Shown piece by piece: positions 30,400-63,936 of a stretch of 64,000 nucleotides of DNA. The position numbers were made by a program, and so were the translations under genes. The DNA lies in the IMG/VR virus record IMGVR_UViG_3300021255_004427, positions 32,001-96,000 of that record. The stretch is one strand, 5' to 3'. This DNA comes from a virus. Taxonomy: Duplodnaviria > Caudoviricetes. Below the pieces are notes generated by a model, which made no database searches, was not told the origin of the DNA, and saw only the letters and a list, made by a program, of their open reading frames with translations. The stretch's first letter is position 1; every line of letters begins with the position of its first letter.

Positions 30400-33300
30400 A
30401 TGGCTGAAGACAAGCTTTATGAAGAAGCAAATGAAGACCTCAGTGATACACTCATAGATTTTGGCACAGATATAGCCGCCGCAGGTGTAGCGGCGGTTTC
30501 TTTTTATCGTGCTGGCGGAGTGAGAGCACTGTCAAAAAAACTCTCGGATTATAGCCACTCCGGATTAAAAAGAGCTGTTGATGATTTTCGAGCGCTTGAC
30601 TACGATCATATTAATTATCGGACGCTAAAAAAATCATACGAACAGATTCGTAATGGGATGAGAAATTTTAAAGCTCAACCTCATGACAATCGCATTCGCT
30701 GGGAGGCAAGGCCAGGCACGCCCATAGAGCTGATCATGGAAGCTGCAAAGCTTCGAGAGTCATCACCTGTAATACAGGAAAATGCCAGATGGCAAAGAGA
30801 AGTTGTAAGGCGCATACAGAAAACCGCATACAAGAATCTGAGCGCTGCGCTGGGCGCTGCAAAGATAAAAAACAGGGACACGATAAAATTAGCGCAGGCT
30901 CAAATGGCAAAGCTCGTTGCCCATGTGGCCAGCGAAGCAAGAAAAGGACATGTAGATTTTGATACAGCAAGGCTTCAGAAAAACTTTAAGGTAACTGGCG
31001 CGGGCGGAGATTTTTATCAAAAAGTTATTGACACTGCAAAATCGCAGGCTGAAAAATTCTCCCTTAATGCAGCAAAACATAAAGGGAGAACTATTGAAAA
31101 CCAGATAGCCGACAGGCTTGAAGCAGTAGAAACGCTTGAACGGGCAGCCGGAGGCAGATACTCTGGAAATACCCTTCGCGATAAAGCATTTGGCGATGGG
31201 CTGGTAACAATCCGCGACACACTCAGTCATGCAGATAGGTTCAATGACACTGACGGCACCTTATTTATAGGTAGTGACCATTCCGTAAAAGAAAGGTCTT
31301 TTCTAAAGGCGTTACAAGAACTCCATGAAAGAGTAAAAGCTAAAAACGATAAAGAAATGCTTGAACGCTTTGAAAATATCGTTATAGACCCGCATCTACG
31401 TAAAACCACTGATGGGGAAATATATTCTCTTGACCCGCTGTATAAAGCAAGATACAAGGTTCTCAAAAGTCTGGCTTACACTATGCCGGGGAAAATTCTG
31501 AAGCTTGCAGATATGATGATGTCTGAGACTACGCCGGCGTTTTATCAGTTCAAAAAGGGTACGCTTAATCCGGTGCTCGCGGCTTTTGAAGAAGGCAACA
31601 CGACCAAGCGCATCATGAGTGACTACTTCTACATGACCGGAAAAGTATTCCGGTATGATGAAGAAAGCAACAAGTTGCTGGATGAATCCGTAAAAGAATT
31701 AGATGGAGGCACACTCTTTTCCACTAGATTTGCAGGCATGGCAAACCTGTATAAAGACATCAATGGCCTTAATGCTCAGCGCGTAAGACAAGACGGGTCA
31801 ATAAGCAAGATTCTTGATCTTAATGCTGCACCGGGAATGAATCCGTGGGATTATCTGGCTGGATATTTTAGCGGAGAACGGGATAAAAAATATCTACCCA
31901 ACGTCATTAAAGATATCAAGAGTGGGAATCTTTTTTCAACATCTGACGATATTGATGATGTGTATGAAAGATTGTCCAGCTTAAACATCTTTTTAAATAA
32001 GAGCACAAGAGGCTTGACGCTGCCTATGCTCAGTGCTCTCGAAAATGTGGCGAGAGAAACCGCTGCTCAGGACGGTAGAGACGCCCTTGAAATTATCAGC
32101 CTCCTAAGACTAAATAATGGTGAACAAATTCTTGACGGCGTAAAAGCCATGGTTGGAGCTCATGGCGGTACAGATGGCGCGTTTTTGAATAACCGTCTTA
32201 ATCGACTGGTAAGCAAATTCGCACGAAACGAATCCGCAACAAAGGGATCTGTCGAACTTTTAGAAGACATTTCTGGTGCTTGGACTGATGATATTTCCGC
32301 TGCCGGTGGCTTAGATTTTTATGGGCAGCTACAGAGAGAGCTGTCTAAAGAAGCGTTAATGCGTATGGCAGAAAACTCTCGTGACGAGGCCGGCGGCTTA
32401 TACAATGCGATAAAAGGTGTTATTGAAAAAAGCAGCATGTCTCACGCTGACGAGGAAGCCGCAAAAAGACTGGCCTATACGTCAATCTTGGATAATGAAA
32501 CCATGAATGCGTTTACCGGCTTCGGGAAATATCAGCGTAGCGAGTATGATGTTGTCGATCCGATAACCAACCAGTCCTTACTGGAGAGCCTTATCGCAAA
32601 ATATACCACTGTTGCGGGCGGAAAAACTACGCGGGCAGGCGAACAAGATGCGTCCAGGGTTATCCAGGATATGGTTAATGATGGCCATGAATGGCAGATG
32701 CTGCATGCTAATGGACGCAACCATGAGAGTGATATACCCGAGCAGTACATTGAATCCGACTATGCAATACTCCGCAAAAGCTCCGGGCCTTTGGAAATTC
32801 TAAAAGCCATAAATCAATCCATAACGGATAGTTCGTTAGATGCACTCAAAGATGAAGGAATGAACTTCATTAATCAGCTCAAGGCTGGCGGACATGATGC
32901 TGGGAATCTATCCAGAATGACGATGGTTCCGTATTTCTTCTTGCGGCGCTTAGGTGGAGACGATCTGCCTCCTTTCTTACAGTTTTCAAACGAGGCTCTT
33001 GATAGCACATGGGGGTTAACAAAAGCAATAGCTAAAAGAATCGCTCCTGTGGCTATCGGAGAAACTTATCTTGAGTGGGGCGACGATACTGTAGGTGCAG
33101 TTACCGGTGTCAGACCAAGTGCGGGATTCGTAAACACTCTGGATTACATGGATATTGGCGCGAGGACTATGCTGGATATGACCGGGATAGGTGGCTTTCT
33201 TGAAAGCGAATCTTACGTCAATCCTATCATGCAATATTGGGGTGGCCGGGATGGCTATTATGATGCCGATGAAGAACGTGATTTTATTGCCAATGGATAT

Positions 33301-36300
33301 GAAGCGGTAAGGCGCGGGCGTTATTGGTCATTTGGTTCGGTAAATGAGTTCCGTGGTTCGACAGTCGAGTATTATCAGCCAACACTTACCAGACGACTTA
33401 ATAGCGACTACTACAATAAATCATTGTATAGTGGTTATTGGGATAAATGGGGGCATTCTCTGTTACCTACGCCAACAGCACCATTTTCCCCGCTCGTTTA
33501 TTTAATGGACCCGTACTATCTCGAGGAAGAGCATAAGGAAGATCGCCCATACACGGTTTCCGGCACAATGTTTGATAAAGAAACTCCTTGGGGTATCGTC
33601 CTTAATCCTACAATCGGTGAACTTGTAAAACCGGTTGTTAAGATGAACCAGGACAGGCTGACGGATGGCGGGCAAGATGTAAAAGCCATTATCTATGGTA
33701 TAAACCAGCATATCCGTGATACTGCTCAGGGTGACCACGCATACGCCATGGTATTCGACCGCGAACAGATTACCGCCGGCGAATATACTTCATACGCATC
33801 TCCCTCGCTTGGCCAGTATAATATCCGTATTGGTAAGGATCGTGGGGAGCAGATGCATCAGGAGCAGCTTGATGCTCTTGGCGGGCCGATGGAACCAGAG
33901 CGTCGCGAAACTCTTTATGAGGGCGGCGGTTCTGGTGATGGCTCTGGTAGCGGATTAGGATTCGGCGGTTCTGGTGGCGGAGGTTCTTTTGGTGGGCAAT
34001 ATCCGCTTGACCTTTTAGGACAGACAAATCGAAAAATATACGTAGCTGCCGCCCGCAATGAAAACAAAGGCGGCATGATCACCACCGACTATATTCGCCA
34101 TAGTAAAGTAGACGAAATCCTCGGCAACGAAGATATGGGTGACCTGATTAACGCCGGAGCTGGTGGCGATCTTGTTCACGAGACAGCTCAGTCGCTAAGA
34201 TTAATTGGCGGTATCTATGGTTATGGCGCAAACAGAGCGTTTGGATTCGGCGAGCGTGATGGAAAGCAAATTGCAGATGCCGGAGACATTGACTCTTTTA
34301 GTCGTTCATTCTGGGATGAATCCGTTGGTGGTATTGGCGGCGGCGTAGCAGAAATTGGGCGTCGTTTTATCCCGGAATACAGGCGAAACATACGTGTCAA
34401 TCCGCTCTTAAATACGATGCCAGATTGGCTTCCAGAGAAGCTAAGATTCGGGGACCCGTATGCGCAATTGCCTAAAGGAGAGGCTCGTCTTCCCGGCAAA
34501 GGGTATGAAGCGTTAAATGAATTACACCCGGACTCCTATGGAATTTATGGCAGCTACGACCGTTATAAGATTTTGGCTGACGTCGCTCCAAATTCAACAG
34601 AGTTTAAGGTCTGGAAAAAGATTGCGAACGCTACGGTTACTGACCCTGTTCTAAAAAAGGACATGGAAAAAATCCAAGAGCGCGTGAACGAACAAAACAA
34701 ACAGCACGATTTTTACGACTATCGGATTCTCGGTAAAGACGTGGATTATCAGGACGCTATTATCCAAGAGGTCAACAAGGATGGTTCATTCCGCATTCGT
34801 GGGTCGAATAGATTATTAACTCTTGCAGGCATTGAGTTTGATAAAACGACCGCGATGAGTGGGGCTGGTAATCAGATTATGGCCGAGTATTTACATCCCG
34901 GCCAGAGTGTAACCATCGCAACAGATTCGAATGAGTATAACAGAGACAATCCTGACGGTACAAATAATGGGGAAGGCACTGTAAATGCAGCTGTATTTGT
35001 TGACGATGAAAGTGTCAGTGAGCTTTTACTTAATGAACACAAGGACGTAATCAAAAAGAAAAAAGACCATCTTAATGCTGCGGACGTATATGCCCTAACA
35101 AGTACATTTGACCGCGTGCTTGGCGGTGCTGCAGAGATTGTTGCTCATGCCGATCTGCCGTTAATCCATGATCGGTGGTTACGTGTAAGAAGCCCGCTTG
35201 AATCGTATAATGCAGAACAAGTATACGGCACGCCATACCAAACATGGTCAGACGTGTGGGGGACGTATATCCAACCGGCTATGGAGAGGGCAGTGTCGGA
35301 TCATTGGGGTGTAATCCGTGGTGCCGCAGAATGGTTCGCTCTAAATAACTTGCAGGCCAGAGAAGGTATTGGTAAAACAAAGAAAATGCTGCTATCTGGA
35401 GCGGCCGCGCTAATGGATAGAGGGGCGTTTATTGGCAGTAGTATTGCTACGTTCTTCCGTCCTGGTGATGGCGAATTGTTCCAGAAAGGCGGTAAAATAG
35501 GCTTAGGCTTGTCGCTCCTTGGCAATCTGTATACCAGCGCGCAGTCAAGCCCAACAGAGGCAGCCGCGAGCTATGCCACGGTTGGTTGGATGGCTGCAGA
35601 TGTGCTGGATACAGAAAAAGAAAAATTCACCAAAGCGCTTAGCGGTTCTATAGAGAAGTTTTTCCGAAATGAAGAATCGTGGAAGTTTAGAACAAAAGGT
35701 GCGTTTATTGGCGCGGCTGCCGGCGTGGCCATGTCTGGCTTATTTGGCCCATCACTTGAAAGTGGAGAGCGTGCCCATTGGACTCCGGACAGGATAAAAC
35801 AAAAGTGGGAACTTGAAGATTACTTTGACCGTCTGACATATATAAAATATACGGGGCTCTATAACCGCGCAGCAGAACTTGCCAAGAGCGAAGAAGGCAC
35901 GGATGTAAAGAAGATTTTTGATGACTATGAAGAATGGAGCGATTGGCGCCGCGAAATTATGCAGGACTCGGACGTAAACAACACCGAGTTCACCCATCTA
36001 GCCAAGAAGAGAATCCAGCGAGCATTAGATGGTCTTCATGATGAAATCTTCGGCAGTAATGATGAGAATAACCATCGTTTTGAATATAGCAATGGCTTTT
36101 CGATAAACGATCTGCCGGGTGTCCGCAATGGTGTATTCCATTCTGAAGAAGTATCCGAGGAAGAACGGCTTTATACACTGAATGCTTTGGTAACGATGGG
36201 TGTTCGATACAATAAACCGGGCACGTCGCGCACTCAGGAAGATCGTGACATGAGCCAGCTCAGAGAATTTGAGCGCGTGTATGGAACTAAAATTCCGGAC

Positions 36301-37092
36301 TACTATCAGGTACATCACATTGTAGAGTTCTCAGAAAACGGTGCGGATGACCCATCTAATATGATTGCTCTCAACCCGGACGATCATCAGTATATCACCG
36401 AACAGCAAAAGAAAATCTCGGAGGGCGATTTTACTGCTGCTGAAATTGGTGCAAGAACTGCCATGCGTATCGGCGAATATGGACGGGCAGCACTGCTCTA
36501 CAAGAAGGCTGCGGAATCCACTATGTATGGTTTGCGGGCGGATGCTAGGTGGACAGATGTTGTAAAAGCCTTGCCGAAATACGAGCGAGATTATTTCACT
36601 GAGTTCATGCGTGAAAACGATCCTGAAAAGCGCGAGGAAATTCTGCAGACCGTATCGCCATTTTTAAGGCGAGCATTGAAGCAGGTCTGGAAGATGGACT
36701 ACGAATCTGATAAAGGGCCGGACAATGAAGAATATTTTCAGAGTCATAATCTGCCAAACTTCCAGTGGGAAGGGTGGGATCCGGATTCTGACTTGAACAA
36801 GGTAAAAGCAAAGACCATTAAAAACGAAGGCATGCTTTTCTCCGATTTTGGAATATACGAATCTACGTATCGTGACCAAGAAGTTATCAATGCGCCAAAT
36901 CTATCGCCTAAAGGTGGAGACGATCCGATAACAGTACAGGCAAATCTGCAGGCAACTTTGTCTGGTTTGGGACTTGTGGGTGTCGAAGTTTCTGTCGAGC
37001 CAAAGTCCACAAAAGGTATTACCTCGGTAATTAACGTCACGAAGGTAACATCGTATAAGCTGGGAGAAACGGTTGATAACCTATTCTCCTGA
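30400..37092 (+). CDS. Giant (2230 aa) tape-measure-position protein with embedded HNH domain
   Basis: Follows the chaperones; helical and Gly/Ala-rich hydrophobic segments; QVHHIVEFSENGADDPSNMIALNPDDH at aa ~1970-1996. Confidence 0.65.
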   Translation: MAEDKLYEEANEDLSDTLIDFGTDIAAAGVAAVSFYRAGGVRALSKKLSDYSHSGLKRAVDDFRALDYDHINYRTLKKSYEQIRNGMRNFKAQPHDNRIRWEARPGTPIELIMEAAKLRESSPVIQENARWQREVVRRIQKTAYKNLSAALGAAKIKNRDTIKLAQAQMAKLVAHVASEARKGHVDFDTARLQKNFKVTGAGGDFYQKVIDTAKSQAEKFSLNAAKHKGRTIENQIADRLEAVETLERAAGGRYSGNTLRDKAFGDGLVTIRDTLSHADRFNDTDGTLFIGSDHSVKERSFLKALQELHERVKAKNDKEMLERFENIVIDPHLRKTTDGEIYSLDPLYKARYKVLKSLAYTMPGKILKLADMMMSETTPAFYQFKKGTLNPVLAAFEEGNTTKRIMSDYFYMTGKVFRYDEESNKLLDESVKELDGGTLFSTRFAGMANLYKDINGLNAQRVRQDGSISKILDLNAAPGMNPWDYLAGYFSGERDKKYLPNVIKDIKSGNLFSTSDDIDDVYERLSSLNIFLNKSTRGLTLPMLSALENVARETAAQDGRDALEIISLLRLNNGEQILDGVKAMVGAHGGTDGAFLNNRLNRLVSKFARNESATKGSVELLEDISGAWTDDISAAGGLDFYGQLQRELSKEALMRMAENSRDEAGGLYNAIKGVIEKSSMSHADEEAAKRLAYTSILDNETMNAFTGFGKYQRSEYDVVDPITNQSLLESLIAKYTTVAGGKTTRAGEQDASRVIQDMVNDGHEWQMLHANGRNHESDIPEQYIESDYAILRKSSGPLEILKAINQSITDSSLDALKDEGMNFINQLKAGGHDAGNLSRMTMVPYFFLRRLGGDDLPPFLQFSNEALDSTWGLTKAIAKRIAPVAIGETYLEWGDDTVGAVTGVRPSAGFVNTLDYMDIGARTMLDMTGIGGFLESESYVNPIMQYWGGRDGYYDADEERDFIANGYEAVRRGRYWSFGSVNEFRGSTVEYYQPTLTRRLNSDYYNKSLYSGYWDKWGHSLLPTPTAPFSPLVYLMDPYYLEEEHKEDRPYTVSGTMFDKETPWGIVLNPTIGELVKPVVKMNQDRLTDGGQDVKAIIYGINQHIRDTAQGDHAYAMVFDREQITAGEYTSYASPSLGQYNIRIGKDRGEQMHQEQLDALGGPMEPERRETLYEGGGSGDGSGSGLGFGGSGGGGSFGGQYPLDLLGQTNRKIYVAAARNENKGGMITTDYIRHSKVDEILGNEDMGDLINAGAGGDLVHETAQSLRLIGGIYGYGANRAFGFGERDGKQIADAGDIDSFSRSFWDESVGGIGGGVAEIGRRFIPEYRRNIRVNPLLNTMPDWLPEKLRFGDPYAQLPKGEARLPGKGYEALNELHPDSYGIYGSYDRYKILADVAPNSTEFKVWKKIANATVTDPVLKKDMEKIQERVNEQNKQHDFYDYRILGKDVDYQDAIIQEVNKDGSFRIRGSNRLLTLAGIEFDKTTAMSGAGNQIMAEYLHPGQSVTIATDSNEYNRDNPDGTNNGEGTVNAAVFVDDESVSELLLNEHKDVIKKKKDHLNAADVYALTSTFDRVLGGAAEIVAHADLPLIHDRWLRVRSPLESYNAEQVYGTPYQTWSDVWGTYIQPAMERAVSDHWGVIRGAAEWFALNNLQAREGIGKTKKMLLSGAAALMDRGAFIGSSIATFFRPGDGELFQKGGKIGLGLSLLGNLYTSAQSSPTEAAASYATVGWMAADVLDTEKEKFTKALSGSIEKFFRNEESWKFRTKGAFIGAAAGVAMSGLFGPSLESGERAHWTPDRIKQKWELEDYFDRLTYIKYTGLYNRAAELAKSEEGTDVKKIFDDYEEWSDWRREIMQDSDVNNTEFTHLAKKRIQRALDGLHDEIFGSNDENNHRFEYSNGFSINDLPGVRNGVFHSEEVSEEERLYTLNALVTMGVRYNKPGTSRTQEDRDMSQLREFERVYGTKIPDYYQVHHIVEFSENGADDPSNMIALNPDDHQYITEQQKKISEGDFTAAEIGARTAMRIGEYGRAALLYKKAAESTMYGLRADARWTDVVKALPKYERDYFTEFMRENDPEKREEILQTVSPFLRRALKQVWKMDYESDKGPDNEEYFQSHNLPNFQWEGWDPDSDLNKVKAKTIKNEGMLFSDFGIYESTYRDQEVINAPNLSPKGGDDPITVQANLQATLSGLGLVGVEVSVEPKSTKGITSVINVTKVTSYKLGETVDNLFS

Positions 37093-58521: not shown

Positions 58522-59046
58522 ATGCTAGATTTAGAAATGACGGACAATGGAGATCTTGCATGGTCTTCGGTGTCGAGCTCGGGCGCTTTTCATTTAAGGT
58601 TTGCGCTGGCAGATTACAAAACGCAGCATATACATTTTCTTTGTAGGCCGACAAGCCGTTTGCAAAACAAACATCGCAAGGGGCAGCGCATTCGCTTCTG
58701 TTTTGCGGAACCAGGAGAAGAGTTTAAGGTACAAACCGGCTTGGTTCAGAATGAAGATGAACGACTACAAGCACTCTACATTGCACTTCGCACAGAGCTT
58801 GGCGATGTAAATGACGATACGGTGGGTTCTGATTTCTATAAAGAGGCTCACCATATCATAGCAGATGCTAATGATTTATCGACTATCCGTGATAAAGCTG
58901 CGGAAGTAGTTGAACGCTTCTTTCCGGGCTCAGTCCTCGAAGCTGAATACTCAATATGTCCAGAGGCAAAAAACTTTAAGTATCAGTCAGTGAAGTTTAC
59001 AATAAAAGATAAAGACAACGAGGTTGTAGCTTCGTTTGTATTCTGA
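58522..59046 (+). CDS. Probable baseplate wedge protein (gp25/gpW-like)
   Basis: MLDLEMTDNGDL...QALYIALRTELG...GS pattern; position among baseplate genes. Confidence 0.55.
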   Translation: MLDLEMTDNGDLAWSSVSSSGAFHLRFALADYKTQHIHFLCRPTSRLQNKHRKGQRIRFCFAEPGEEFKVQTGLVQNEDERLQALYIALRTELGDVNDDTVGSDFYKEAHHIIADANDLSTIRDKAAEVVERFFPGSVLEAEYSICPEAKNFKYQSVKFTIKDKDNEVVASFVF

Positions 59047-59072
59047 GAGAGCGAAAGCTCTCTATTTTTTTT
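59046..59072 (+). terminator. Intrinsic terminator
   Basis: AGAGAGC-gaaa-GCTCTCT then A and a long T-run. Confidence 0.8.
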
Positions 59073-59102
59073 GAAAAAATTTGCTTTGCTGTAAAAATAG
59101 TC

Positions 59103-59153
59103 TTGACAAATGTGGTAATGTGTACTACGATTAATGTAGTACAAGATACCACA
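59103..59153 (+). promoter_or_regulatory. sigmaA promoter overlapped by two NrtR-type operators
   Basis: TTGACA (59103)-17 bp-TACGAT (59126); boxes TGTGGT-aatgtgt-ACTACG and TGTAGT-acaagat-ACCACA, both with the GT-N7-AC core. Confidence 0.75.
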
Positions 59154-59170
59154 AAAAAGAGGTTGATTAT

Positions 59171-59956
59171 ATGTCAGATACACAAGAAGAGAAGGAATTT
59201 CTCAAGAACTACGATGCGGCACAGTATGAAAGACCATCCGTAACAGCAGATGTTGTTATTTTTACTGTAGACAGAGATAACGAATTAAGTATCCTGTTGA
59301 TAAAGCGCGGAGGGCATCCTTTTAAGGACCATTGGGCTATCCCAGGTGGATTTCTTGAGGCTGGAAAAGAATCCATTGATGAGGCAGCCGCCCGCGAGCT
59401 GTACGAGGAAACGGGAATAAAGGTTTCTAATGGTATTGAACTTAGGCAGCTTATCACAGTTGGTGAACCGGATCGCGACCCGAGAACACATGTCGTAAGC
59501 GTAGTTTATACGGCATTGGTTCCCAAAGGGCTTCTGCATATAAAAGCAGGGGATGATGCAAAAGAAGCACAGCTTTTTAAAATCCGCAGTTGGTTCGACG
59601 AAGAAGGAAACCGCAGGCTGCGTCTTGTTGGTGATAAGATTTCACTTACCACGGATAACCTTGCATTCGATCATGCCCGCATTATAAAAATTGCATTGGA
59701 AAGGCTTAGGGGGCGGTTAGAATATACGGACGACGCCTTCGCAATGCTCAAGAATAAAAAATGTTTTAAGATTTACGAGCTCAAGAAAATTCACGAAACC
59801 ATTTTACAAAAAGTAATCGACAGAGCGAACTTCCGTAAAATGTTTATTCGAAACTTTGTCGATACCGGTAAAGTTAGAGAATTAAAAAAAGATGAAGTTG
59901 AAGGTGCTGTAAAAACAGCAATGTATATGTATGTTGGAGGAAATGAGCATGAGTAA
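59171..59956 (+). CDS. nrtR: NrtR family Nudix-wHTH transcriptional regulator
   Basis: YERPSVTADVVIF, WAIPGGF, RELYEETG, PDRDPR, LAFDH and C-terminal wHTH DRANFRK. Confidence 0.9.
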   Translation: MSDTQEEKEFLKNYDAAQYERPSVTADVVIFTVDRDNELSILLIKRGGHPFKDHWAIPGGFLEAGKESIDEAAARELYEETGIKVSNGIELRQLITVGEPDRDPRTHVVSVVYTALVPKGLLHIKAGDDAKEAQLFKIRSWFDEEGNRRLRLVGDKISLTTDNLAFDHARIIKIALERLRGRLEYTDDAFAMLKNKKCFKIYELKKIHETILQKVIDRANFRKMFIRNFVDTGKVRELKKDEVEGAVKTAMYMYVGGNEHE

Positions 59957-60500
59957 AAAAGTATTGATTGTTGTTGACATGCAGAACGATTTTATCGATG
60001 GTGCGCTGGGCACTAAAGAAGCCGAGGCCATTGTCGATAACGTAGCCAAGAAGGTTGCGGAGGCAAAAAAGAACGGCGATATCATTATCTTCACGCAGGA
60101 TACACATACGGAAGATTACCTCAACACGCAGGAAGGTAAGAATCTGCCGGTGCCTCACTGTATTAAAGGAACAGATGGCTGGAAGATAACCAACAAGATT
60201 GACATTCCTGAAGAACACCTGATATACGAAAAAGGCTCCTTCGGCTCTGGTGAACTTGGCAAAGACCTCTCCAATAGCGAGAAGGAAATCAGTGCGATTG
60301 AATTTGTCGGGCTTTGCACAGATATCTGCGTACTGTCCAACGCAGTAATTGCAAAAGCGGCACTGCCGGAAGTTCCCATCACAGTAGATGCTGCATGCTG
60401 CGCAGGCGTAACGCCGAAGAGCCATGATGAAGCTCTTGGCGCATTGCAGATGATTCAGGTAAAAGTCGTAAACCAAGGGCAGGAACCCTGGAGGGCATAA
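59949..60500 (+). CDS. pncA: Nicotinamidase (isochorismatase family)
   Basis: VVDMQNDF, DTH, PHC, EK and TDICV catalytic/metal residues; operon context; start set from the GGAGG at 59936. Confidence 0.88.
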   Translation: MSKKVLIVVDMQNDFIDGALGTKEAEAIVDNVAKKVAEAKKNGDIIIFTQDTHTEDYLNTQEGKNLPVPHCIKGTDGWKITNKIDIPEEHLIYEKGSFGSGELGKDLSNSEKEISAIEFVGLCTDICVLSNAVIAKAALPEVPITVDAACCAGVTPKSHDEALGALQMIQVKVVNQGQEPWRA

Positions 60501-60501
60501 A

Positions 60502-61038
60502 ATGCGCGTCGGAATTTACTTTGGTTGCTTTATCCCGCTTCATAAGGGACATGAAGCAATAATTAAAACAGCCCTAGCCGAAAATGACCATTTAATTCTG
60601 GGCGTTTGTGGGTATGATAATGACCGTGGCCATGATTATGTTCCGTTTCGGCAGCGTATCAATCTTATATCAAAGATATATGGCCGGCGCAAGAATATGA
60701 CTCTAGCGGTTGTAGATGATAAGAAAATCGGCCTTAAAGGGACATTTAGTTTAAACGCCTGGGAAATCTGGTGCAACGAACTATTCAAAAACTCTGGGTT
60801 TGACCCTAGTGACAAGGCAAATCAATACGTCTGGTATTCTGGCGAAAAGGATTATCTGGAGAAGATACAACAGCTATATCCCAGCCACGAAATGCGGCTC
60901 ATTTCCAGAGACGTAATTCCGATTTCGGGAACGGAAATCAGGGCCAATACCAGTAAATATATCACGCATATTAATCCGTTATTTGCTTTGTACTTAGCAG
61001 CACGGGAATTATTGGAGGACAATAAACATGAAGTTTAA
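60502..61038 (+). CDS. HxGH nucleotidyltransferase, probable NaMN/NMN adenylyltransferase (NadM/NadR-like)
   Basis: GCFIPLHKGH and ISGTEIR motifs; lies between pncA and pncB. Confidence 0.75.
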   Translation: MRVGIYFGCFIPLHKGHEAIIKTALAENDHLILGVCGYDNDRGHDYVPFRQRINLISKIYGRRKNMTLAVVDDKKIGLKGTFSLNAWEIWCNELFKNSGFDPSDKANQYVWYSGEKDYLEKIQQLYPSHEMRLISRDVIPISGTEIRANTSKYITHINPLFALYLAARELLEDNKHEV

Positions 61039-62245
61039 TCAGATTATCAATTCTCTCTTGGAAACTGACCTTTACAAATTTAGCATGGGGCAGGCAATTT
61101 TCCATCAGGCCAGCGAATATGAAACCACTTGGTCTTTTAAATGCCGCAATAAAGACGTATTCTTTACGCCGGAAATGGTTGAAGAAATCCGTGAGCAGAT
61201 AAAAGCATTCTGCGGCCTGCGTTTCACGGAGGATGAGCTTCAGTATCTGGCCGGAATCAAATGGCTAAAGAAGTCTTATATCAACCATCTGCGCCTGTGG
61301 CGGCCCAACTTTGAGGATTTCGATATCAAGGCGGGCGGCGAAAAGGGCCTTATTCTTGAGGCCAAAGGCACGCTTCTGGATACATCTATGTATGAAATCC
61401 CGACTCTGGCCATTGTCAACGAGGTATATTACCGGTTCCGTGACGACTACGCATTGCTCGTTGAAGACTCCAAGGCTCGTACGCGGGCAAAAGCAGAAAA
61501 GATTCAGATGGGCAAGTATTGGCTGCCGGTATTCTCTGAATTCGGTCTGCGCCGCCGTCTTTGTGCAGAAGCGCAGGAATTTGCTGTAGAAACATTCTCC
61601 AAGCTGGATTGCCATGATGTTCTGCGCTCCTATTTTGTCGGCACCTCCAACGTTTATCTGGCCAAGAAATATGGCGTAACGCCGGTAGGCACGATGGCAC
61701 ATGAATGGATTATGTGCATGGGACAGGGCAATCACCTGTACAATCCTTCCTATTCTAACAAAGTAGCATTGGAAGCCTGGGTAAGAGAGTACGGCGTAGA
61801 TAATGGTATCGCACTTACCGATACGATTACGACGGACTGTTTCCTGCGCGATTTCAACAAGACGCTGGCTACGCTTTTCAGCGGTGTGCGCCATGACTCC
61901 GGTGACCCGTTTGTATGGGGCGACAAGATGATTGACCACTACACTCGCCTTGGCATTGACCCGATGACAAAGACGCTGTTGTTCTCTGATTCTCTGAACT
62001 TTGAGAAGGCAGATAAGATTGCTCATTATTTCGATGGCAAGGCTAAAGTAGCTTTCGGTATTGGTACATTTATTGCCAACGACACCTATGCTGAGCCCTT
62101 GAACATTGTCATGAAAGTGACGGAATGCAATGGCAGCCCGGTTGCAAAAATCTCCGATACCGTCGGCAAAGGGATGTGCAAGAGTCAGGAATATGTGGAC
62201 TACCTGCAGAGAGCTATTGACTGGCGCCTGAAGAATAAAGACTAA
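61028..62245 (+). CDS. pncB: Nicotinate phosphoribosyltransferase
   Basis: LLETDLYK, EFGLRRR, GTSNV, GTMAHE, RHDSGD, FSDSL, FGIGT. Confidence 0.93.
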   Translation: MKFNQIINSLLETDLYKFSMGQAIFHQASEYETTWSFKCRNKDVFFTPEMVEEIREQIKAFCGLRFTEDELQYLAGIKWLKKSYINHLRLWRPNFEDFDIKAGGEKGLILEAKGTLLDTSMYEIPTLAIVNEVYYRFRDDYALLVEDSKARTRAKAEKIQMGKYWLPVFSEFGLRRRLCAEAQEFAVETFSKLDCHDVLRSYFVGTSNVYLAKKYGVTPVGTMAHEWIMCMGQGNHLYNPSYSNKVALEAWVREYGVDNGIALTDTITTDCFLRDFNKTLATLFSGVRHDSGDPFVWGDKMIDHYTRLGIDPMTKTLLFSDSLNFEKADKIAHYFDGKAKVAFGIGTFIANDTYAEPLNIVMKVTECNGSPVAKISDTVGKGMCKSQEYVDYLQRAIDWRLKNKD

Positions 62246-62248
62246 GGG

Positions 62249-63028
62249 GTGTTTTACTTGTATCCTGAATTTGATGCGAAGAAAGATAAAGAAAAGATTA
62301 TCAGCTTTTTGAGAAATTGGTTTGCCGAAAACGGCACACCGGAAACAAAAGCTGTAATAGGTATTTCCGGAGGCAAGGATTCCTCTATTGCTGCAGCACT
62401 TTGCGTAGAAGCGCTGGGGGAAGATAATGTCATCGGAGTTCTTATGCCCAATGGCATCCAGCCAGACATTGACGATGCGCTTGAGGTGGTAAAACATCTT
62501 GGTATCAAATATCGCATTGTCAATATTGAATCGTCGTACAAAGCTATGCTTAAAGCGCTGCAGTATACCGAGGCTAAAGTTGACAACAACTTCCATTTTT
62601 CAGTTACAGACCAGCTTCTTCAGAATCTTGCGCCAAGGTTACGGATGGCAACGTTATATGCTATAGCGCAGGGAGTAGAAGGTGGTGGTCGAGTTATCAA
62701 TACCTGCAATCGTTCTGAAGATTATGTAGGTTATTCGACAAAGTTCGGTGATAGCGCCGGCGACGTTTCCCCGCTTGGCGCTTATACTGTAGATGAAGTC
62801 CTGGCCATCGGAGCACTTTTGGACATTCCGGAAAGACTGGTACACAAAGCACCGTCTGACGGGCTTTGTGGTAAAACCGATGAAGATAACCTGGGCTTTA
62901 CCTATGCTGTTTTGGACAAGTACATAAAAACCGGCGAATGTGAGGATGAGCTGGTGCAGAAGCGAATTGACGAGCTGCATTATATCAATCTTCACAAACT
63001 CAAGCCAATGCCAATGGTTAAACGGTAA
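62249..63028 (+). CDS. nadE: NH3-dependent NAD+ synthetase
   Basis: GISGGKDS, RLRM, NRSE..VGYSTKFGD, KAPSDGL, TDEDNLG; no glutaminase domain. Confidence 0.93.
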   Translation: MFYLYPEFDAKKDKEKIISFLRNWFAENGTPETKAVIGISGGKDSSIAAALCVEALGEDNVIGVLMPNGIQPDIDDALEVVKHLGIKYRIVNIESSYKAMLKALQYTEAKVDNNFHFSVTDQLLQNLAPRLRMATLYAIAQGVEGGGRVINTCNRSEDYVGYSTKFGDSAGDVSPLGAYTVDEVLAIGALLDIPERLVHKAPSDGLCGKTDEDNLGFTYAVLDKYIKTGECEDELVQKRIDELHYINLHKLKPMPMVKR

Positions 63029-63033
63029 TCAGC

Positions 63034-63065
63034 AAAAAGCTTCTATCGAATGATAGAGGCTTTTT
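63034..63065 (+). terminator. Terminator closing the NAD operon
   Basis: AAAAAGCTTCTATC-gaat-GATAGAGGCTTTTT. Confidence 0.8.
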
Positions 63066-63147
63066 ATTTATCCGTGGACTAAAGCATTCCAGATGGTAAT
63101 GTCTGGACTAGATAAAATTCGGAAAATACCAGATAGGAAGGAAAACA

Positions 63148-63936
63148 ATGCGTACAGCTGAAGATATAAATTTAAGTATAAAAGATAGTTTTTATAAGTT
63201 AACCGGGCGGGAATACCGGTCGGGAAGCGCACTGGGGTTTATTACGGACGCTGTGTCGCGCGAAATGGAAACGGCTCATCTTGAAATCGAGCGCAATAAG
63301 AATCCCCATATCTATACAAATCTATACGGGGAAGACCTTGATAAAATGGGGACATTTGTAAATGTTCCTCGCGAAGCCGGCGAAGATGATATGACATACC
63401 TGTACAGGATTATGAATTGGACATATTTAAAAGCAGGGGCAAATAATATTGCTGTAAACGACTCTTTGCTTAACCTGGAGTATGCTTCCGATGCCCAATA
63501 CTATCCGAAACTTCATGGCGCGGGAACGGGTGTTATTTACATTATCCCAACAGAGTATAGCGACGATATTATGGCAAAGGCGTTGGCCGAGGTAAAAAAG
63601 CGGGTTGAAAATGTTATTTCGCCAGAGTCTTATACGGAATATATTATTCCCACGGCGGTGCCGGTTAATCTGGTATGCCACTTAGAAGTAAACGGCGGCG
63701 ATGTTTCTTACATTAAGGATAAGATTTCAGAGGCGCTAAAAGAATACATCAATGGGATTGCTCCAAACACCTACCTGTCCGTCGGCGAAATGAACCGGAT
63801 TGGGCTGGAAATGGATAATGTTGATTTCTTCTCGATAGATGGAGTCTATCTTAACGAGGAATACAATACTGATACAAAAATACTGCAAGAGCTAGAAACT
63901 AAAATGTTATTTCAGGAAATAAGCTGGGAGGATTAA
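63148..63936 (+). CDS. Baseplate J-like wedge protein
   Basis: GEDLDKMG...VPREAGEDDMTYLYRI and GAGTGVIYIIP patterns. Confidence 0.7.
   Translation: MRTAEDINLSIKDSFYKLTGREYRSGSALGFITDAVSREMETAHLEIERNKNPHIYTNLYGEDLDKMGTFVNVPREAGEDDMTYLYRIMNWTYLKAGANNIAVNDSLLNLEYASDAQYYPKLHGAGTGVIYIIPTEYSDDIMAKALAEVKKRVENVISPESYTEYIIPTAVPVNLVCHLEVNGGDVSYIKDKISEALKEYINGIAPNTYLSVGEMNRIGLEMDNVDFFSIDGVYLNEEYNTDTKILQELETKMLFQEISWED

What the first reader, a model, noticed from the sequence alone, without database searches (positions are those of the whole stretch)
59046..63065. Complete deamidating NAD+ rebuilding operon inserted between baseplate genes: candidate new anti-defence pathway
Seen: a self-contained cassette (own promoter, flanking terminators) nrtR-pncA-HxGH transferase-pncB-nadE between gp25-like and baseplate J-like genes, with catalytic motifs intact. 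Known: these steps give nicotinamide to nicotinate to NaMN to NaAD to NAD+; SIR2/TIR-type defences cleave NAD+ to nicotinamide plus ADPR; described phage NAD reconstitution routes are NARP1 (Adps/Namat) and NARP2 (Nampt/Nmnat). Inference: a third, four-enzyme, ADPR-inducible route whose deamidated intermediates may escape NADases. Alternative: a metabolic moron benefiting the lysogen, since similar operons occur on Firmicutes chromosomes.
Basis: partly seen in the sequence, partly recalled or inferred. Interest (0 to 1): 0.85.

Follow-up and report, generated by a model that had tools for sequence, protein, structure and literature searches.

The report
Phage-borne ADP-ribose-gated NAD+ salvage operon
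A 224-kb rumen phage carries a working-looking copy of its host's operon for rebuilding NAD+ from nicotinamide, plus its own adenylyltransferase, which may help it survive NAD+-destroying bacterial immunity; such clusters have already been reported in giant phages and none has been tested.

Summary
Between two intrinsic terminators lie a sigma-70-type promoter with twin NrtR operators and five tightly packed genes: nrtR, pncA, an HxGH adenylyltransferase, pncB and nadE. Catalytic motifs are intact. The cassette sits between a gp25-like and a baseplate-J-like gene of a 224-kb IMG/VR phage.

- Origin: nrtR, pncB and nadE form one clade with Selenomonas chromosomal nrtR-pncA-pncB-nadE operons. 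Even the promoter and operators are conserved. A distant phage relative has the two baseplate genes adjacent, so this is an insertion.
- Adenylyltransferase: it is not NadD. It is a rare stand-alone NadR-type NMNAT domain, not found in 201 Selenomonadaceae genomes. In other phage cassettes a NadD-type gene takes this role, never both. In one phage it is fused to NadE.
- Selection: all five genes are under purifying selection, and composition matches the phage.

The reading is partly supported. The route is plausible, but the order of the last two steps is unresolved and the anti-defence role is untested. It is not the "third" route, because NARP3 (PnuC/NadR) exists. Preiss-Handler clusters in jumbo phages were reported in 2024. 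This scan has already noted similar phage cassettes on other DNA (e1-3914656, e1-5362108/9).

The parts
58522..59046 (+). Upstream flank: 174-aa virion/baseplate-type protein (gp25 / sheath-initiator-like, lead only)
   Evidence: No Pfam or PHROG hit. Atlas neighbours are 'baseplate family protein', GP46, GPW_gp25 and Sheath_initiator at 0.90. Conserved next to the cassette in L002-L007, and directly next to the baseplate-J-like gene in L169.
59046..59071 (+). Intrinsic terminator closing the upstream structural gene
   Evidence: 7-bp GC-rich stem, GAAA loop and a run of 8 T. Folds at -11.8 kcal/mol.
59103..59131 (+). Sigma-70-type promoter TTGACA-17 nt-TACGAT
   Evidence: 10 of 12 consensus matches. 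The same architecture stands upstream of nrtR in S. ruminantium S137 (L082), in Lachnospiraceae and in other phage cassettes.
59112..59128 (.). NrtR box 1 (GTGGTA-N5-TACTAC), between the -35 and overlapping the -10
   Evidence: Part of an 18-nt-arm inverted repeat. Fits the GT-N7-AC core of NrtR sites (PMC2330246). Conserved in position in host and phage homologues. The strict motif occurs only twice in 224 kb, against 0.05 expected.
59136..59152 (.). NrtR box 2 (GTAGTA-N5-TACCAC), just downstream of the -10, over the expected transcription start
59171..59956 (+). nrtR: Nudix-related ADP-ribose-responsive repressor (261 aa)
   Evidence: PF00293 1e-20 plus NrtR_WHD; NF050029 135 bits over residues 5-254. 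PDB 2fml and Shewanella NrtR 3gz5. 66-69% identical to Selenomonas NrtR. Groups with Selenomonas at 99 support.
59931..60500 (+). pncA: nicotinamidase (189 aa; the true start may be an internal Met at 59943 or 59949)
   Evidence: PF00857 3e-26. Best PDB hits are nicotinamidases 1ilw/1im5, 3o90 and 3pl1, with the D, K, C triad and D-x-H...H aligned. phrog_19305.
60502..61038 (+). Stand-alone NadR-type pyridine-mononucleotide adenylyltransferase (178 aa), with no kinase and no HTH domain
   Evidence: TIGR01526 83.6 bits against NadD TIGR00482 22 bits. PDB NadR 6gye, E = 3e-21. AF2 pLDDT 93, and the best folds are NadR NMNAT domains with TM 0.71-0.75. HxGH and ISGTxIR are conserved, but the NMN-binding loop is remodelled.
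61028..62245 (+). pncB: nicotinate phosphoribosyltransferase (405 aa)
   Evidence: NF003704 469 bits and TIGR01514 412 bits, both over their cut-offs. 83-86% identical to Selenomonas PncB. Clade support 100.
62249..63028 (+). nadE: single-domain, ammonia-type NAD synthetase family protein (259 aa, GTG start)
   Evidence: TIGR00552 171 bits, over its cut-off. SGGKDS P-loop. PDB 3fiu, 2e18 and 3p52. 66-76% identical to Selenomonas NadE. Clade support 100.
63034..63073 (+). Intrinsic terminator closing the cassette
   Evidence: 14-bp hairpin at -17.3 kcal/mol, z = -5.15, followed by a U-rich tract.
63148..63936 (+). Downstream flank: baseplate-J-like protein (262 aa)
   Evidence: Atlas 0.98-0.99 to baseplate J/gp47 clusters. 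Weak PHROG baseplate hits. Its 52%-identical homologue in L169 directly follows the upstream-flank homologue.

Best explanation
The cassette is an autonomous, host-RNA-polymerase-read operon.

Origin:
- A jumbo-phage lineage of rumen Selenomonas-like bacteria captured it from a host-type nrtR-pncA-pncB-nadE operon.
- The phage lineage then completed it with a stand-alone NadR-type adenylyltransferase.

Regulation (inferred from the family):
- NrtR, from the phage and probably also the resident host protein, sits on two boxes over the promoter.
- ADP-ribose, the product of NAD+ cleavage, releases it.

Pathway:
- PncA turns nicotinamide into nicotinate.
- PncB makes NaMN from nicotinate and PRPP.
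- The adenylyltransferase and NadE together convert NaMN to NAD+. The most likely order is NaMN to NaAD to NAD+, using ammonia.

Effect: NAD+ is replenished in the infected cell exactly when NAD+ is being broken down. The most likely selective benefit is tolerance of NAD+ depletion, including Sir2/TIR-type abortive-infection defences.

What is shown: gene identities, motifs, operator conservation, host origin, insertion, purifying selection, and recurrence in several phage lineages.

What is inferred: substrate specificities, ADP-ribose induction, timing of expression and any anti-defence effect.
For: Identity and regulation:
- Family and motif assignments.
- Twin GT-N7-AC boxes over the promoter are conserved in S. 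ruminantium S137, in Lachnospiraceae and in other phage cassettes. They are unique within the 224-kb genome.
- ADP-ribose releases NrtR in vitro in two family members (PMC2330246).

Origin:
- PncB, NadE and NrtR each group with four Selenomonas species at 99-100 support.
- Selenomonas operons lack the adenylyltransferase, and it was not found in 201 Selenomonadaceae genomes.
- L169 has the two flanking genes adjacent, so the cassette is an insertion.
- The cassette is kept in six further contigs of this phage group.

Selection:
- dN/dS is 0.03-0.125 for the five genes.
- Cassette GC is 45%, like the phage (44%) and unlike the Selenomonas operon (55%).

Adenylyltransferase slot:
- Of 80 viral PncB loci, 44 carry a NadD-type gene, 13 a NadR-type gene and none both.
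- Of 80 bacterial loci, 8 carry either.
- By PncB clusters, 7 of 12 virus-containing clusters carry one, against 6 of 40 bacterial-only clusters.
- A natural NMNAT-NadE fusion exists in a 467-kb phage with terminal repeats.
- A 41%-identical homologue lies next to pncB and nadE.

Context:
- The genome has no NadD, NAMPT, PnuC or PRPS-like gene.
- RNA-library contigs identical to the cassette exist in a metatranscriptome of the source sample.
- Defence-type SIR2_2 proteins occur in 15 of 101 Selenomonadaceae genomes.
- Precedent: ordinary salvage enzymes act as counter-defence in NARP2 and NARP3 (10.1101/2024.02.11.579819; PMC13464706).
Against: - No experiment exists on this or any phage Preiss-Handler cassette in the literature searched.
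- The adenylyltransferase belongs to the NadR family. To my knowledge its studied members use NMN, not NaMN, so the self-contained NaMN-to-NAD+ route rests on gene context.
- The likely host already has the same operon under the same operator, plus NadD and de novo NadA. The added value of a phage copy is therefore unclear.
- The route costs PRPP and several ATP and has four steps, which may be slow against an active NADase.
- An integrase-family gene and the classic moron layout fit a lysogeny-related role equally well.
- The RNA contigs do not prove transcription and say nothing about timing.
Confidence: 0.55

Rival explanations
1. The cassette is a general metabolic moron or auxiliary metabolic gene set. 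It tops up NAD+ for the lysogen, or for a long jumbo-phage infection, and has no specific relation to NAD+-depleting immunity.
For: - The layout is that of a moron: its own host-type promoter between two terminators, inside a late structural module.
- An integrase-family recombinase is present in the genome (phrog_1, E = 2e-37).
- The same operon is an ordinary housekeeping regulon in Selenomonas, Lachnospiraceae and Clostridium (PMC2330246).
- 174 of 668 gut jumbo phages carry NAD synthesis genes, which suggests a general need (PMC11662467).
Against: - No integrated copy of this phage was found in 121 Selenomonadaceae genomes searched.
- No NAD-dependent ligase was found in the genome that would explain a special demand; other NAD+-consuming enzymes were not searched for.
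- The entry substrate and the inducer are exactly the two products of NADase defences.
- Phage cassettes are enriched for their own adenylyltransferase relative to bacterial operons, which suggests a need for high autonomous flux.
Confidence: 0.3
2. The last two steps run in the Francisella order. NadE acts as an NMN synthetase (NaMN to NMN), and the NadR-type enzyme, keeping its family's NMN specificity, makes NAD+ from NMN.
For: - The adenylyltransferase is NadR-type by sequence and fold.
- The best solved relative of the NadE is 3fiu. From my own memory this is the Francisella NMN synthetase; the Sorci 2009 paper was not held.
- The route is established in Francisella (cited in PMC3376133).
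- The phage genome has no NadD.
- The NMNAT-NadE fusion fits either order.
Against: - The phage NadE is 66-76% identical to, and forms one clade with, the NadE of Selenomonas. Selenomonas has a canonical NadD, so its NadE presumably amidates NaAD.
- The next-best solved relatives are ordinary short NAD synthetases.
- An archaeal member of the single-domain, ammonia-using NadE type (M. jannaschii) has no NMN synthetase activity (PMC3376133).
- NadD-type and NadR-type genes are mutually exclusive in otherwise similar phage cassettes, which suggests the same job.
- The NMN-binding loop of NadR (YPxGW) is remodelled in this clade.
Confidence: 0.2
3. The cassette is not self-contained. The NadR-type enzyme only recycles NMN (for example from NAD+ pyrophosphatase or ligase reactions) in a side branch, and the nicotinamide route still depends on host NadD.
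For: - The NadR family is NMN-specific where studied (own knowledge).
- Butyrivibrio chromosomes carry both a NadD elsewhere and a NadR-type domain inside nrtR-pncA-X-pncB-nadE.
- The host NadD is available in the infected cell.
Against: - The gene is consistently embedded between pncA and pncB, or fused to nadE.
- It never co-occurs with a NadD-type gene in phage cassettes.
- A second, salvage-dedicated adenylyltransferase inside NrtR regulons is a known theme, for example Pseudomonas nrtR-nadD and C. acetobutylicum pncB-nadD-nadE (PMC2330246).
Confidence: 0.2

Closest known systems
Bacterial NrtR-regulated 'salvage I' operons (Rodionov et al. [quoted passage not shown]
   Same: Same regulator family, same palindromic GT-N7-AC operators over the promoter, and the same pncA, pncB and nadE enzymes. 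Three of the genes form one clade with Selenomonas, and the promoter-operator region is nearly the same as in S. ruminantium S137.
   Different: It is carried by a phage inside its baseplate module. The adenylyltransferase is a stand-alone NadR-type domain inserted between pncA and pncB, instead of NadD. Its composition has been adjusted to the phage.
'NAD-jumbo phages' with Preiss-Handler gene clusters, such as Kuafu_71 pncB-nadD-nadE (Microbiome 2024, PMC11662467)
   Same: A phage of more than 200 kb with clustered genes for a complete deamidated route to NAD+. The counter-defence idea was already proposed there.
   Different: That paper does not mention NrtR (0 occurrences in its main text) and describes NadD. 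Here there is an ADP-ribose-type switch, a pncA entry step and a NadR-type adenylyltransferase. Neither case has been tested experimentally.
NARP2 (Nampt + Nmnat) and Vibrio phage KVP40 NadV/NatV
   Same: Phage enzymes that rebuild NAD+ starting from nicotinamide, one of the two NADase products, and end with an HxGH adenylyltransferase.
   Different: NARP2 is amidated and has two steps (nicotinamide to NMN to NAD+). Here there is no Nampt, and the route goes through nicotinate and NaMN with an extra amidation step.
NARP3 (PnuC + NadR-like Bas30_86; Sci Adv 2026, PMC13464706)
   Same: The 178-aa enzyme is homologous to the NMNAT half of NadR-like enzymes (PDB 6gye and 8x7f; phrog_3462).
   Different: There is no ribosylnicotinamide kinase domain and no PnuC in the genome. 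The NMN-binding loop carrying the Y86/W90-type residues is remodelled. The precursor is nicotinamide, not imported nicotinamide riboside.
Francisella tularensis route: PncB, NMN synthetase (NadE*), NadM
   Same: A genome without NadD that combines PncB, a short NadE and an NMN-type adenylyltransferase. 3fiu is the best solved match of the NadE.
   Different: The adenylyltransferase is NadR-type, not NadM. The NadE groups with that of NadD-containing Selenomonas. The specificity is unknown.

Membership tests
NrtR-regulated Preiss-Handler (salvage I) operon | NrtR protein with an N-terminal Nudix-like domain and a C-terminal winged-helix DNA-binding domain | tested here: met
   PF00293 plus PF21906 (at its cut-off). 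NF050029 covers residues 5-254. PDB 2fml and 3gz5 align to residue 235.
NrtR-regulated Preiss-Handler (salvage I) operon | Palindromic operator with a GT-N7-AC core overlapping the promoter of the regulated genes | tested here: met
   Two boxes at 59112-59128 and 59136-59152 flank the -10. They are conserved in host and phage homologues and unique in the genome (motif from PMC2330246).
NrtR-regulated Preiss-Handler (salvage I) operon | ADP-ribose releases NrtR from DNA | not testable with these tools
   Shown in vitro for the Synechocystis and Shewanella proteins only (PMC2330246). The Nudix box here is G-X6-E-X7-REUXEEXGU, identical in Selenomonas.
NrtR-regulated Preiss-Handler (salvage I) operon | PncA nicotinamidase, PncB and NadE present with catalytic motifs | tested here: met
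   PncB and NadE score over their NCBIfam cut-offs.
NrtR-regulated Preiss-Handler (salvage I) operon | NadD-type NaMN adenylyltransferase for the NaMN to NaAD step | tested here: not met
   TIGR00482 scores only 22 bits on the 178-aa protein, and the genome has no NadD. The slot is held by a NadR-type domain.
NadR-family NMN adenylyltransferase | Rossmann-type nucleotidyltransferase fold with HxGH and ISxTxxR motifs, closest to NadR NMNAT domains | tested here: met
   PLHKGH and ISGTEIR are present. TIGR01526 is the best family. The fold matches 6gzo, 6gyf and 1lw7 at TM 0.67-0.75.
NadR-family NMN adenylyltransferase | C-terminal ribosylnicotinamide kinase domain (and an HTH in enterobacterial NadR) | tested here: not met
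   The protein has 178 aa and ends after the NMNAT domain. Full-length relatives have 350-390 aa.
NadR-family NMN adenylyltransferase | NMN-binding loop with the YPxGW-type aromatic pair (Y86/W90 of Bas30_86) | tested here: not met
   The Trp is kept, but Y-P is replaced by G(T/K)F(S/T)xxx with two extra residues and a preceding DDKK, throughout the stand-alone clade (residues from PMC13464706).
NadR-family NMN adenylyltransferase | Preference for NMN over NaMN | not testable with these tools
   This needs enzyme kinetics. Gene context points towards a role in the NaMN branch.
Phage NAD+ reconstitution pathways (NARP1-3) | NARP1: Adps (PRPS-like) plus Namat | tested here: not met
   No Pribosyltran_N match in the genome. 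The only NAPRTase-family gene is a bona fide PncB.
Phage NAD+ reconstitution pathways (NARP1-3) | NARP2: Nampt plus Nmnat | tested here: not met
   There is no Nampt. The phosphoribosyltransferase passes the PncB equivalog cut-offs.
Phage NAD+ reconstitution pathways (NARP1-3) | NARP3: PnuC transporter plus a bifunctional NadR-like kinase/adenylyltransferase | tested here: not met
   No PnuC match and no kinase domain.
Phage NAD+ reconstitution pathways (NARP1-3) | Restores NAD+ and rescues phage from NAD+-depleting defence | not testable with these tools
   This needs infection assays.
NAD-jumbo phage (PMC11662467) | Phage genome over 200 kb encoding all steps of a salvage or Preiss-Handler route | tested here: met
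   The virus record is 224,101 bp with CheckV completeness 95%. All four enzymatic steps have a candidate, provided the NadR-type enzyme or NadE covers NaMN.

The most novel reading that the evidence does not exclude
This would be a fourth phage NAD+ reconstitution pathway. It senses the defence's own product, ADP-ribose, through NrtR. It then rebuilds NAD+ from the other product, nicotinamide, by the deamidated route. It does so with a previously uncharacterised stand-alone NadR-type enzyme that has switched to (or gained) NaMN adenylyltransferase activity, which makes the phage independent of host NadD. It would protect against Sir2/TIR-type NADase immunity.
Probability: 0.3. Interest if true: 0.75.

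Novelty: new variant of a known kind. Interest (0 to 1): 0.5.

Why it matters
If it works as proposed, the known phage answers to NAD+-depleting immunity (NARP1-3) would gain a deamidated route that switches on only when NAD+ is being cleaved. It would also show that phages can take a whole host regulon, operators included, and make it self-sufficient by adding one enzyme.

The stand-alone NadR-type adenylyltransferase clade is small: 239 representatives among 1.84 billion proteins. It is tied to pncB and nadE in phages and in a few Lachnospiraceae. It is a concrete enzymology target. Its substrate choice decides which of two known orders of NAD+ synthesis operates.

Practically, the cassette is a compact five-gene unit that can be moved into model systems for direct tests.

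Tried and rejected
Searches that found little or nothing:
- A DNA search of the cassette against 50,697 phage records gave only one 220-bp match.
- A close-pattern scan of 185,579 species genomes with the adenylyltransferase found nothing.
- The Sorci 2009 NMN synthetase paper is not held. No residue-level test of NadE specificity was therefore possible.
- Pfam found nothing in the 2922-aa and 3102-aa proteins or in four downstream structural proteins.
- Terminase_6C and the sheath C-terminal domain were not detected in five other cassette-bearing virus records. Their viral nature rests on IMG/VR terminal repeats and CheckV completeness instead.
- No direct repeats flank the cassette, so there is no transposon-like signature.

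Evidence I rejected:
- I do not take the top PDB hit 3fiu as evidence for the Francisella route. The next hits are ordinary NAD synthetases, and an archaeal member of the single-domain, ammonia-using NadE type (M. jannaschii) has no NMN synthetase activity (PMC3376133).
- A single-sequence AlphaFold model of the upstream 174-aa flank was unusable (pLDDT 44). 'gp25-like' therefore stays a lead.

RNA runs:
- The metatranscriptome contigs of run X4 cover only the cassette and not the 9 kb of flanking structural genes.
- Runs X15 and X20 hold only 90-95% relatives.

No complex prediction was run, because no binding claim is made.

Full report
**Where the window lies.** The window is bases 32001-96000 of a 224,101-bp linear IMG/VR virus record with CheckV completeness 95%. 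Earlier notes of this scan describe it as a contractile-tailed jumbo phage with its own RNA polymerases. I did not test those notes.

- Five co-directional, tightly packed ORFs lie at 59171-59956, 59931-60500, 60502-61038, 61028-62245 and 62249-63028.
- They match NUDIX plus the NrtR winged helix, isochorismatase/nicotinamidase, a cytidylyltransferase-like HxGH enzyme, PncB and NadE.
- PncB (NF003704, 469 bits) and NadE (TIGR00552, 171 bits) pass their curated cut-offs.
- PncA has the Asp-Lys-Cys triad and the D-x-H...H metal site, aligned to P. horikoshii nicotinamidase.
- NadE has SGGKDS.
- The transferase has PLHKGH and ISGTEIR.
- NrtR keeps RELYEETGI in a G-X6-E-X7 Nudix box.
- An intrinsic terminator follows the upstream gene (59046-59071).
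- A TTGACA-17-TACGAT promoter lies at 59103-59131.
- A 14-bp hairpin (-17.3 kcal/mol, z = -5.15) closes the unit at 63034-63065.
- The downstream flank is baseplate-J-like.
- The upstream flank is only tentatively gp25 / sheath-initiator-like, and its fold failed.

**The switch.**
- An inverted repeat with 18-nt arms spans the -10.
- It resolves into two 17-nt boxes, GTGGTA-N5-TACTAC and GTAGTA-N5-TACCAC.
- Each box has the GT-N7-AC core that Rodionov et al. derived for NrtR sites. In that study ADP-ribose released two NrtR proteins from DNA in vitro (PMC2330246).
- The same TTGACA / box / -10 / box layout stands upstream of nrtR in S. ruminantium S137, where it is almost base for base the same. 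It also stands in several Lachnospiraceae and in two other phage cassettes.
- The strict box occurs only at these two places in the 224-kb genome, against 0.05 expected. The regulator therefore controls just this cassette.
- Because the operators match the host type, resident host NrtR should also bind them. This is inference.

**Origin.**
- The closest bacterial PncB proteins are from Selenomonas ruminantium, S. caprae and Selenomonas sp. (83-86% identity).
- Those chromosomes carry nrtR-pncA-pncB-nadE with NrtR 66-69%, PncA 59-64% and NadE 66-76% identical. They have no gene between pncA and pncB.
- In trees of PncB, NadE and NrtR, the phage group forms one clade with the four Selenomonas species at 99-100 support.
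- Other viral lineages nest separately among Lachnospiraceae, which points to independent captures.
- Six further viral contigs of 79-235 kb, from different samples, hold the same cassette between the same flanks.
- A more distant relative, L169 (baseplate J 52% identical), has the two flanking genes 144 bp apart with no cassette. The cassette is thus an insertion into the baseplate module.
- The capture is old. Synonymous sites are saturated against Selenomonas. Cassette GC is 45%, matching the phage at 44% rather than the Selenomonas operon at 55%.
- The five genes show dN/dS of 0.03-0.125 between phage lineages, similar to the structural flanks.

**The adenylyltransferase is the unusual part.**
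- It is not NadD (TIGR00482, 22 bits). It is a NadR-type NMNAT domain (TIGR01526, 83.6 bits; L. lactis NadR 6gye, E = 3e-21).
- A confident model (pLDDT 93) matches NadR NMNAT domains best, ahead of NadM, NadD and PPAT.
- It lacks the kinase domain. Its family is tiny: 239 representatives at E <= 0.001 among 1.84 billion, and 15 at E <= 1e-30. The next relatives are 350-390-aa NadR proteins.
- It was not found in 201 Selenomonadaceae genomes, so it was added to the captured operon from elsewhere.
- Its relatives are consistently tied to the same pathway:
  - between pncA and pncB in three other phage lineages and in Butyrivibrio chromosomes;
  - next to pncB and two nadE genes in a metagenomic contig;
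  - fused to NadE in a 467-kb phage with terminal repeats.
- In a large set of other viral contigs the cluster carries a NadD-type gene instead, lying between pncB and nadE (pncA-x-pncB-nadD-nadE).
- Of 80 viral PncB loci, 44 have NadD-type, 13 NadR-type, 23 neither and none both. Of 80 bacterial loci only 8 have either.
- Counted by PncB clusters at 85% identity, 7 of 12 virus-containing clusters have an adenylyltransferase, against 6 of 40 bacterial-only clusters.
- This looks like non-orthologous displacement and a phage-specific drive to make the route self-sufficient.
- The NMN-binding loop that carries Y86/W90 in the NARP3 enzyme (PMC13464706) is remodelled and longer in the whole stand-alone clade. 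That would fit a changed pyridine-nucleotide preference, but it proves nothing.

**Order of the last steps.**
- The best solved relative of the NadE is 3fiu. From memory this is the Francisella NMN synthetase; the paper was not available.
- The next hits are ordinary short NAD synthetases. An archaeal member of the single-domain, ammonia-using NadE type (M. jannaschii) has no NMN synthetase activity, while bifunctional NadM enzymes work with ordinary NAD synthetases in Acinetobacter (PMC3376133).
- Selenomonas has a canonical NadD. Its NadE, and most likely the 66-76%-identical phage NadE, therefore amidates NaAD.
- My odds are about 55% for NaMN to NaAD to NAD+, 20-25% for the Francisella order, and about 20% for a separate NMN branch that still relies on host NadD.

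**What it is for.**
- The genome has no other NAD gene: no NadD, Nampt, PnuC, PRPS-like gene, second Nudix or NAD-dependent ligase.
- The entry substrate (nicotinamide) and the inducer (ADP-ribose) are the two products of Sir2/TIR NADases.
- Defence-type SIR2_2 proteins occur in 15 of 101 Selenomonadaceae genomes.
- Ordinary salvage enzymes are proven counter-defences in NARP2 and NARP3.
- Against this, the likely host already has the same operon plus NadD and NadA.
- The phage also has an integrase-family gene, although no integrated copy was found in 121 genomes.
- Nothing has been tested. Contigs identical to the cassette occur in a metatranscriptome of the source sample, which is weak support for transcription only.

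**Novelty.**
- The operon type is a textbook NrtR regulon.
- Complete Preiss-Handler clusters in jumbo phages, with the counter-defence idea, were published in 2024 (PMC11662467).
- NARP3 is already taken by PnuC/NadR.
- This scan has noted similar phage cassettes and phage NrtR switches on other DNA.
- I did not find three things in the literature searched:
  - the NadR-type stand-alone adenylyltransferase as the phage-added step;
  - the retention of host operators;
  - the enrichment of adenylyltransferases in phage cassettes.
- I therefore rate it a new variant of a known kind, of moderate interest and readily testable.

Noticed in passing
L167:4485-5753 (also L003-L005): In the sister phage lineage, a 422-aa RRXRR-HNH endonuclease gene is inserted between nrtR and pncA. 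It splits the cassette and looks like a homing-endonuclease invasion.
   Followed up: partly
L035:13676-14917: A 413-aa natural fusion of the NadR-type adenylyltransferase with NadE, in a 467-kb virus record with direct terminal repeats.
   Followed up: partly
contig of P0026 (no DNA held): A 41%-identical stand-alone adenylyltransferase is followed by pncB and two tandem nadE paralogues (247 and 252 aa). This may be one NAD synthetase and one NMN synthetase.
   Followed up: no
L014:8001-10650 and 13 similar viral loci (L012-L031): A different phage NAD cluster: pncB-nadE followed by a NudE/YffH-like ADP-ribose-type Nudix hydrolase, with no adenylyltransferase. A MAG contig labelled Odoribacter (L096) is nearly identical and may be a mis-binned phage.
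   Followed up: no
L041:7427-7993: A conserved 188-aa protein of unknown function (phrog_20637) sits between pncA and pncB in the large NadD-type phage cassette lineage.
   Followed up: no
L083-L085, about 150 nt upstream of nrtR: Other Selenomonas species use a different operator variant (TAGTC-N5-GACTA, three or more copies) before the same operon. Operator and regulator have therefore diverged within the genus.
   Followed up: no
L163:7903-8117: One near-identical phage contig has about 200 extra bases between pncB and nadE, and its nadE frame extends to 302 aa.
   Followed up: no
G000:C1:174805-175803 (L173:1072-2070): An integrase-family tyrosine recombinase (phrog_1, E = 2e-37) in a 224-kb phage. 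Whether it serves integration or dimer resolution is unknown.
   Followed up: partly
window 30400-37092 and L162:12070-14913: The 2230-aa protein carries an HNH motif near residue 1970-2000. A 947-aa downstream protein carries long collagen triple-helix repeats and is probably a fibre.
   Followed up: no
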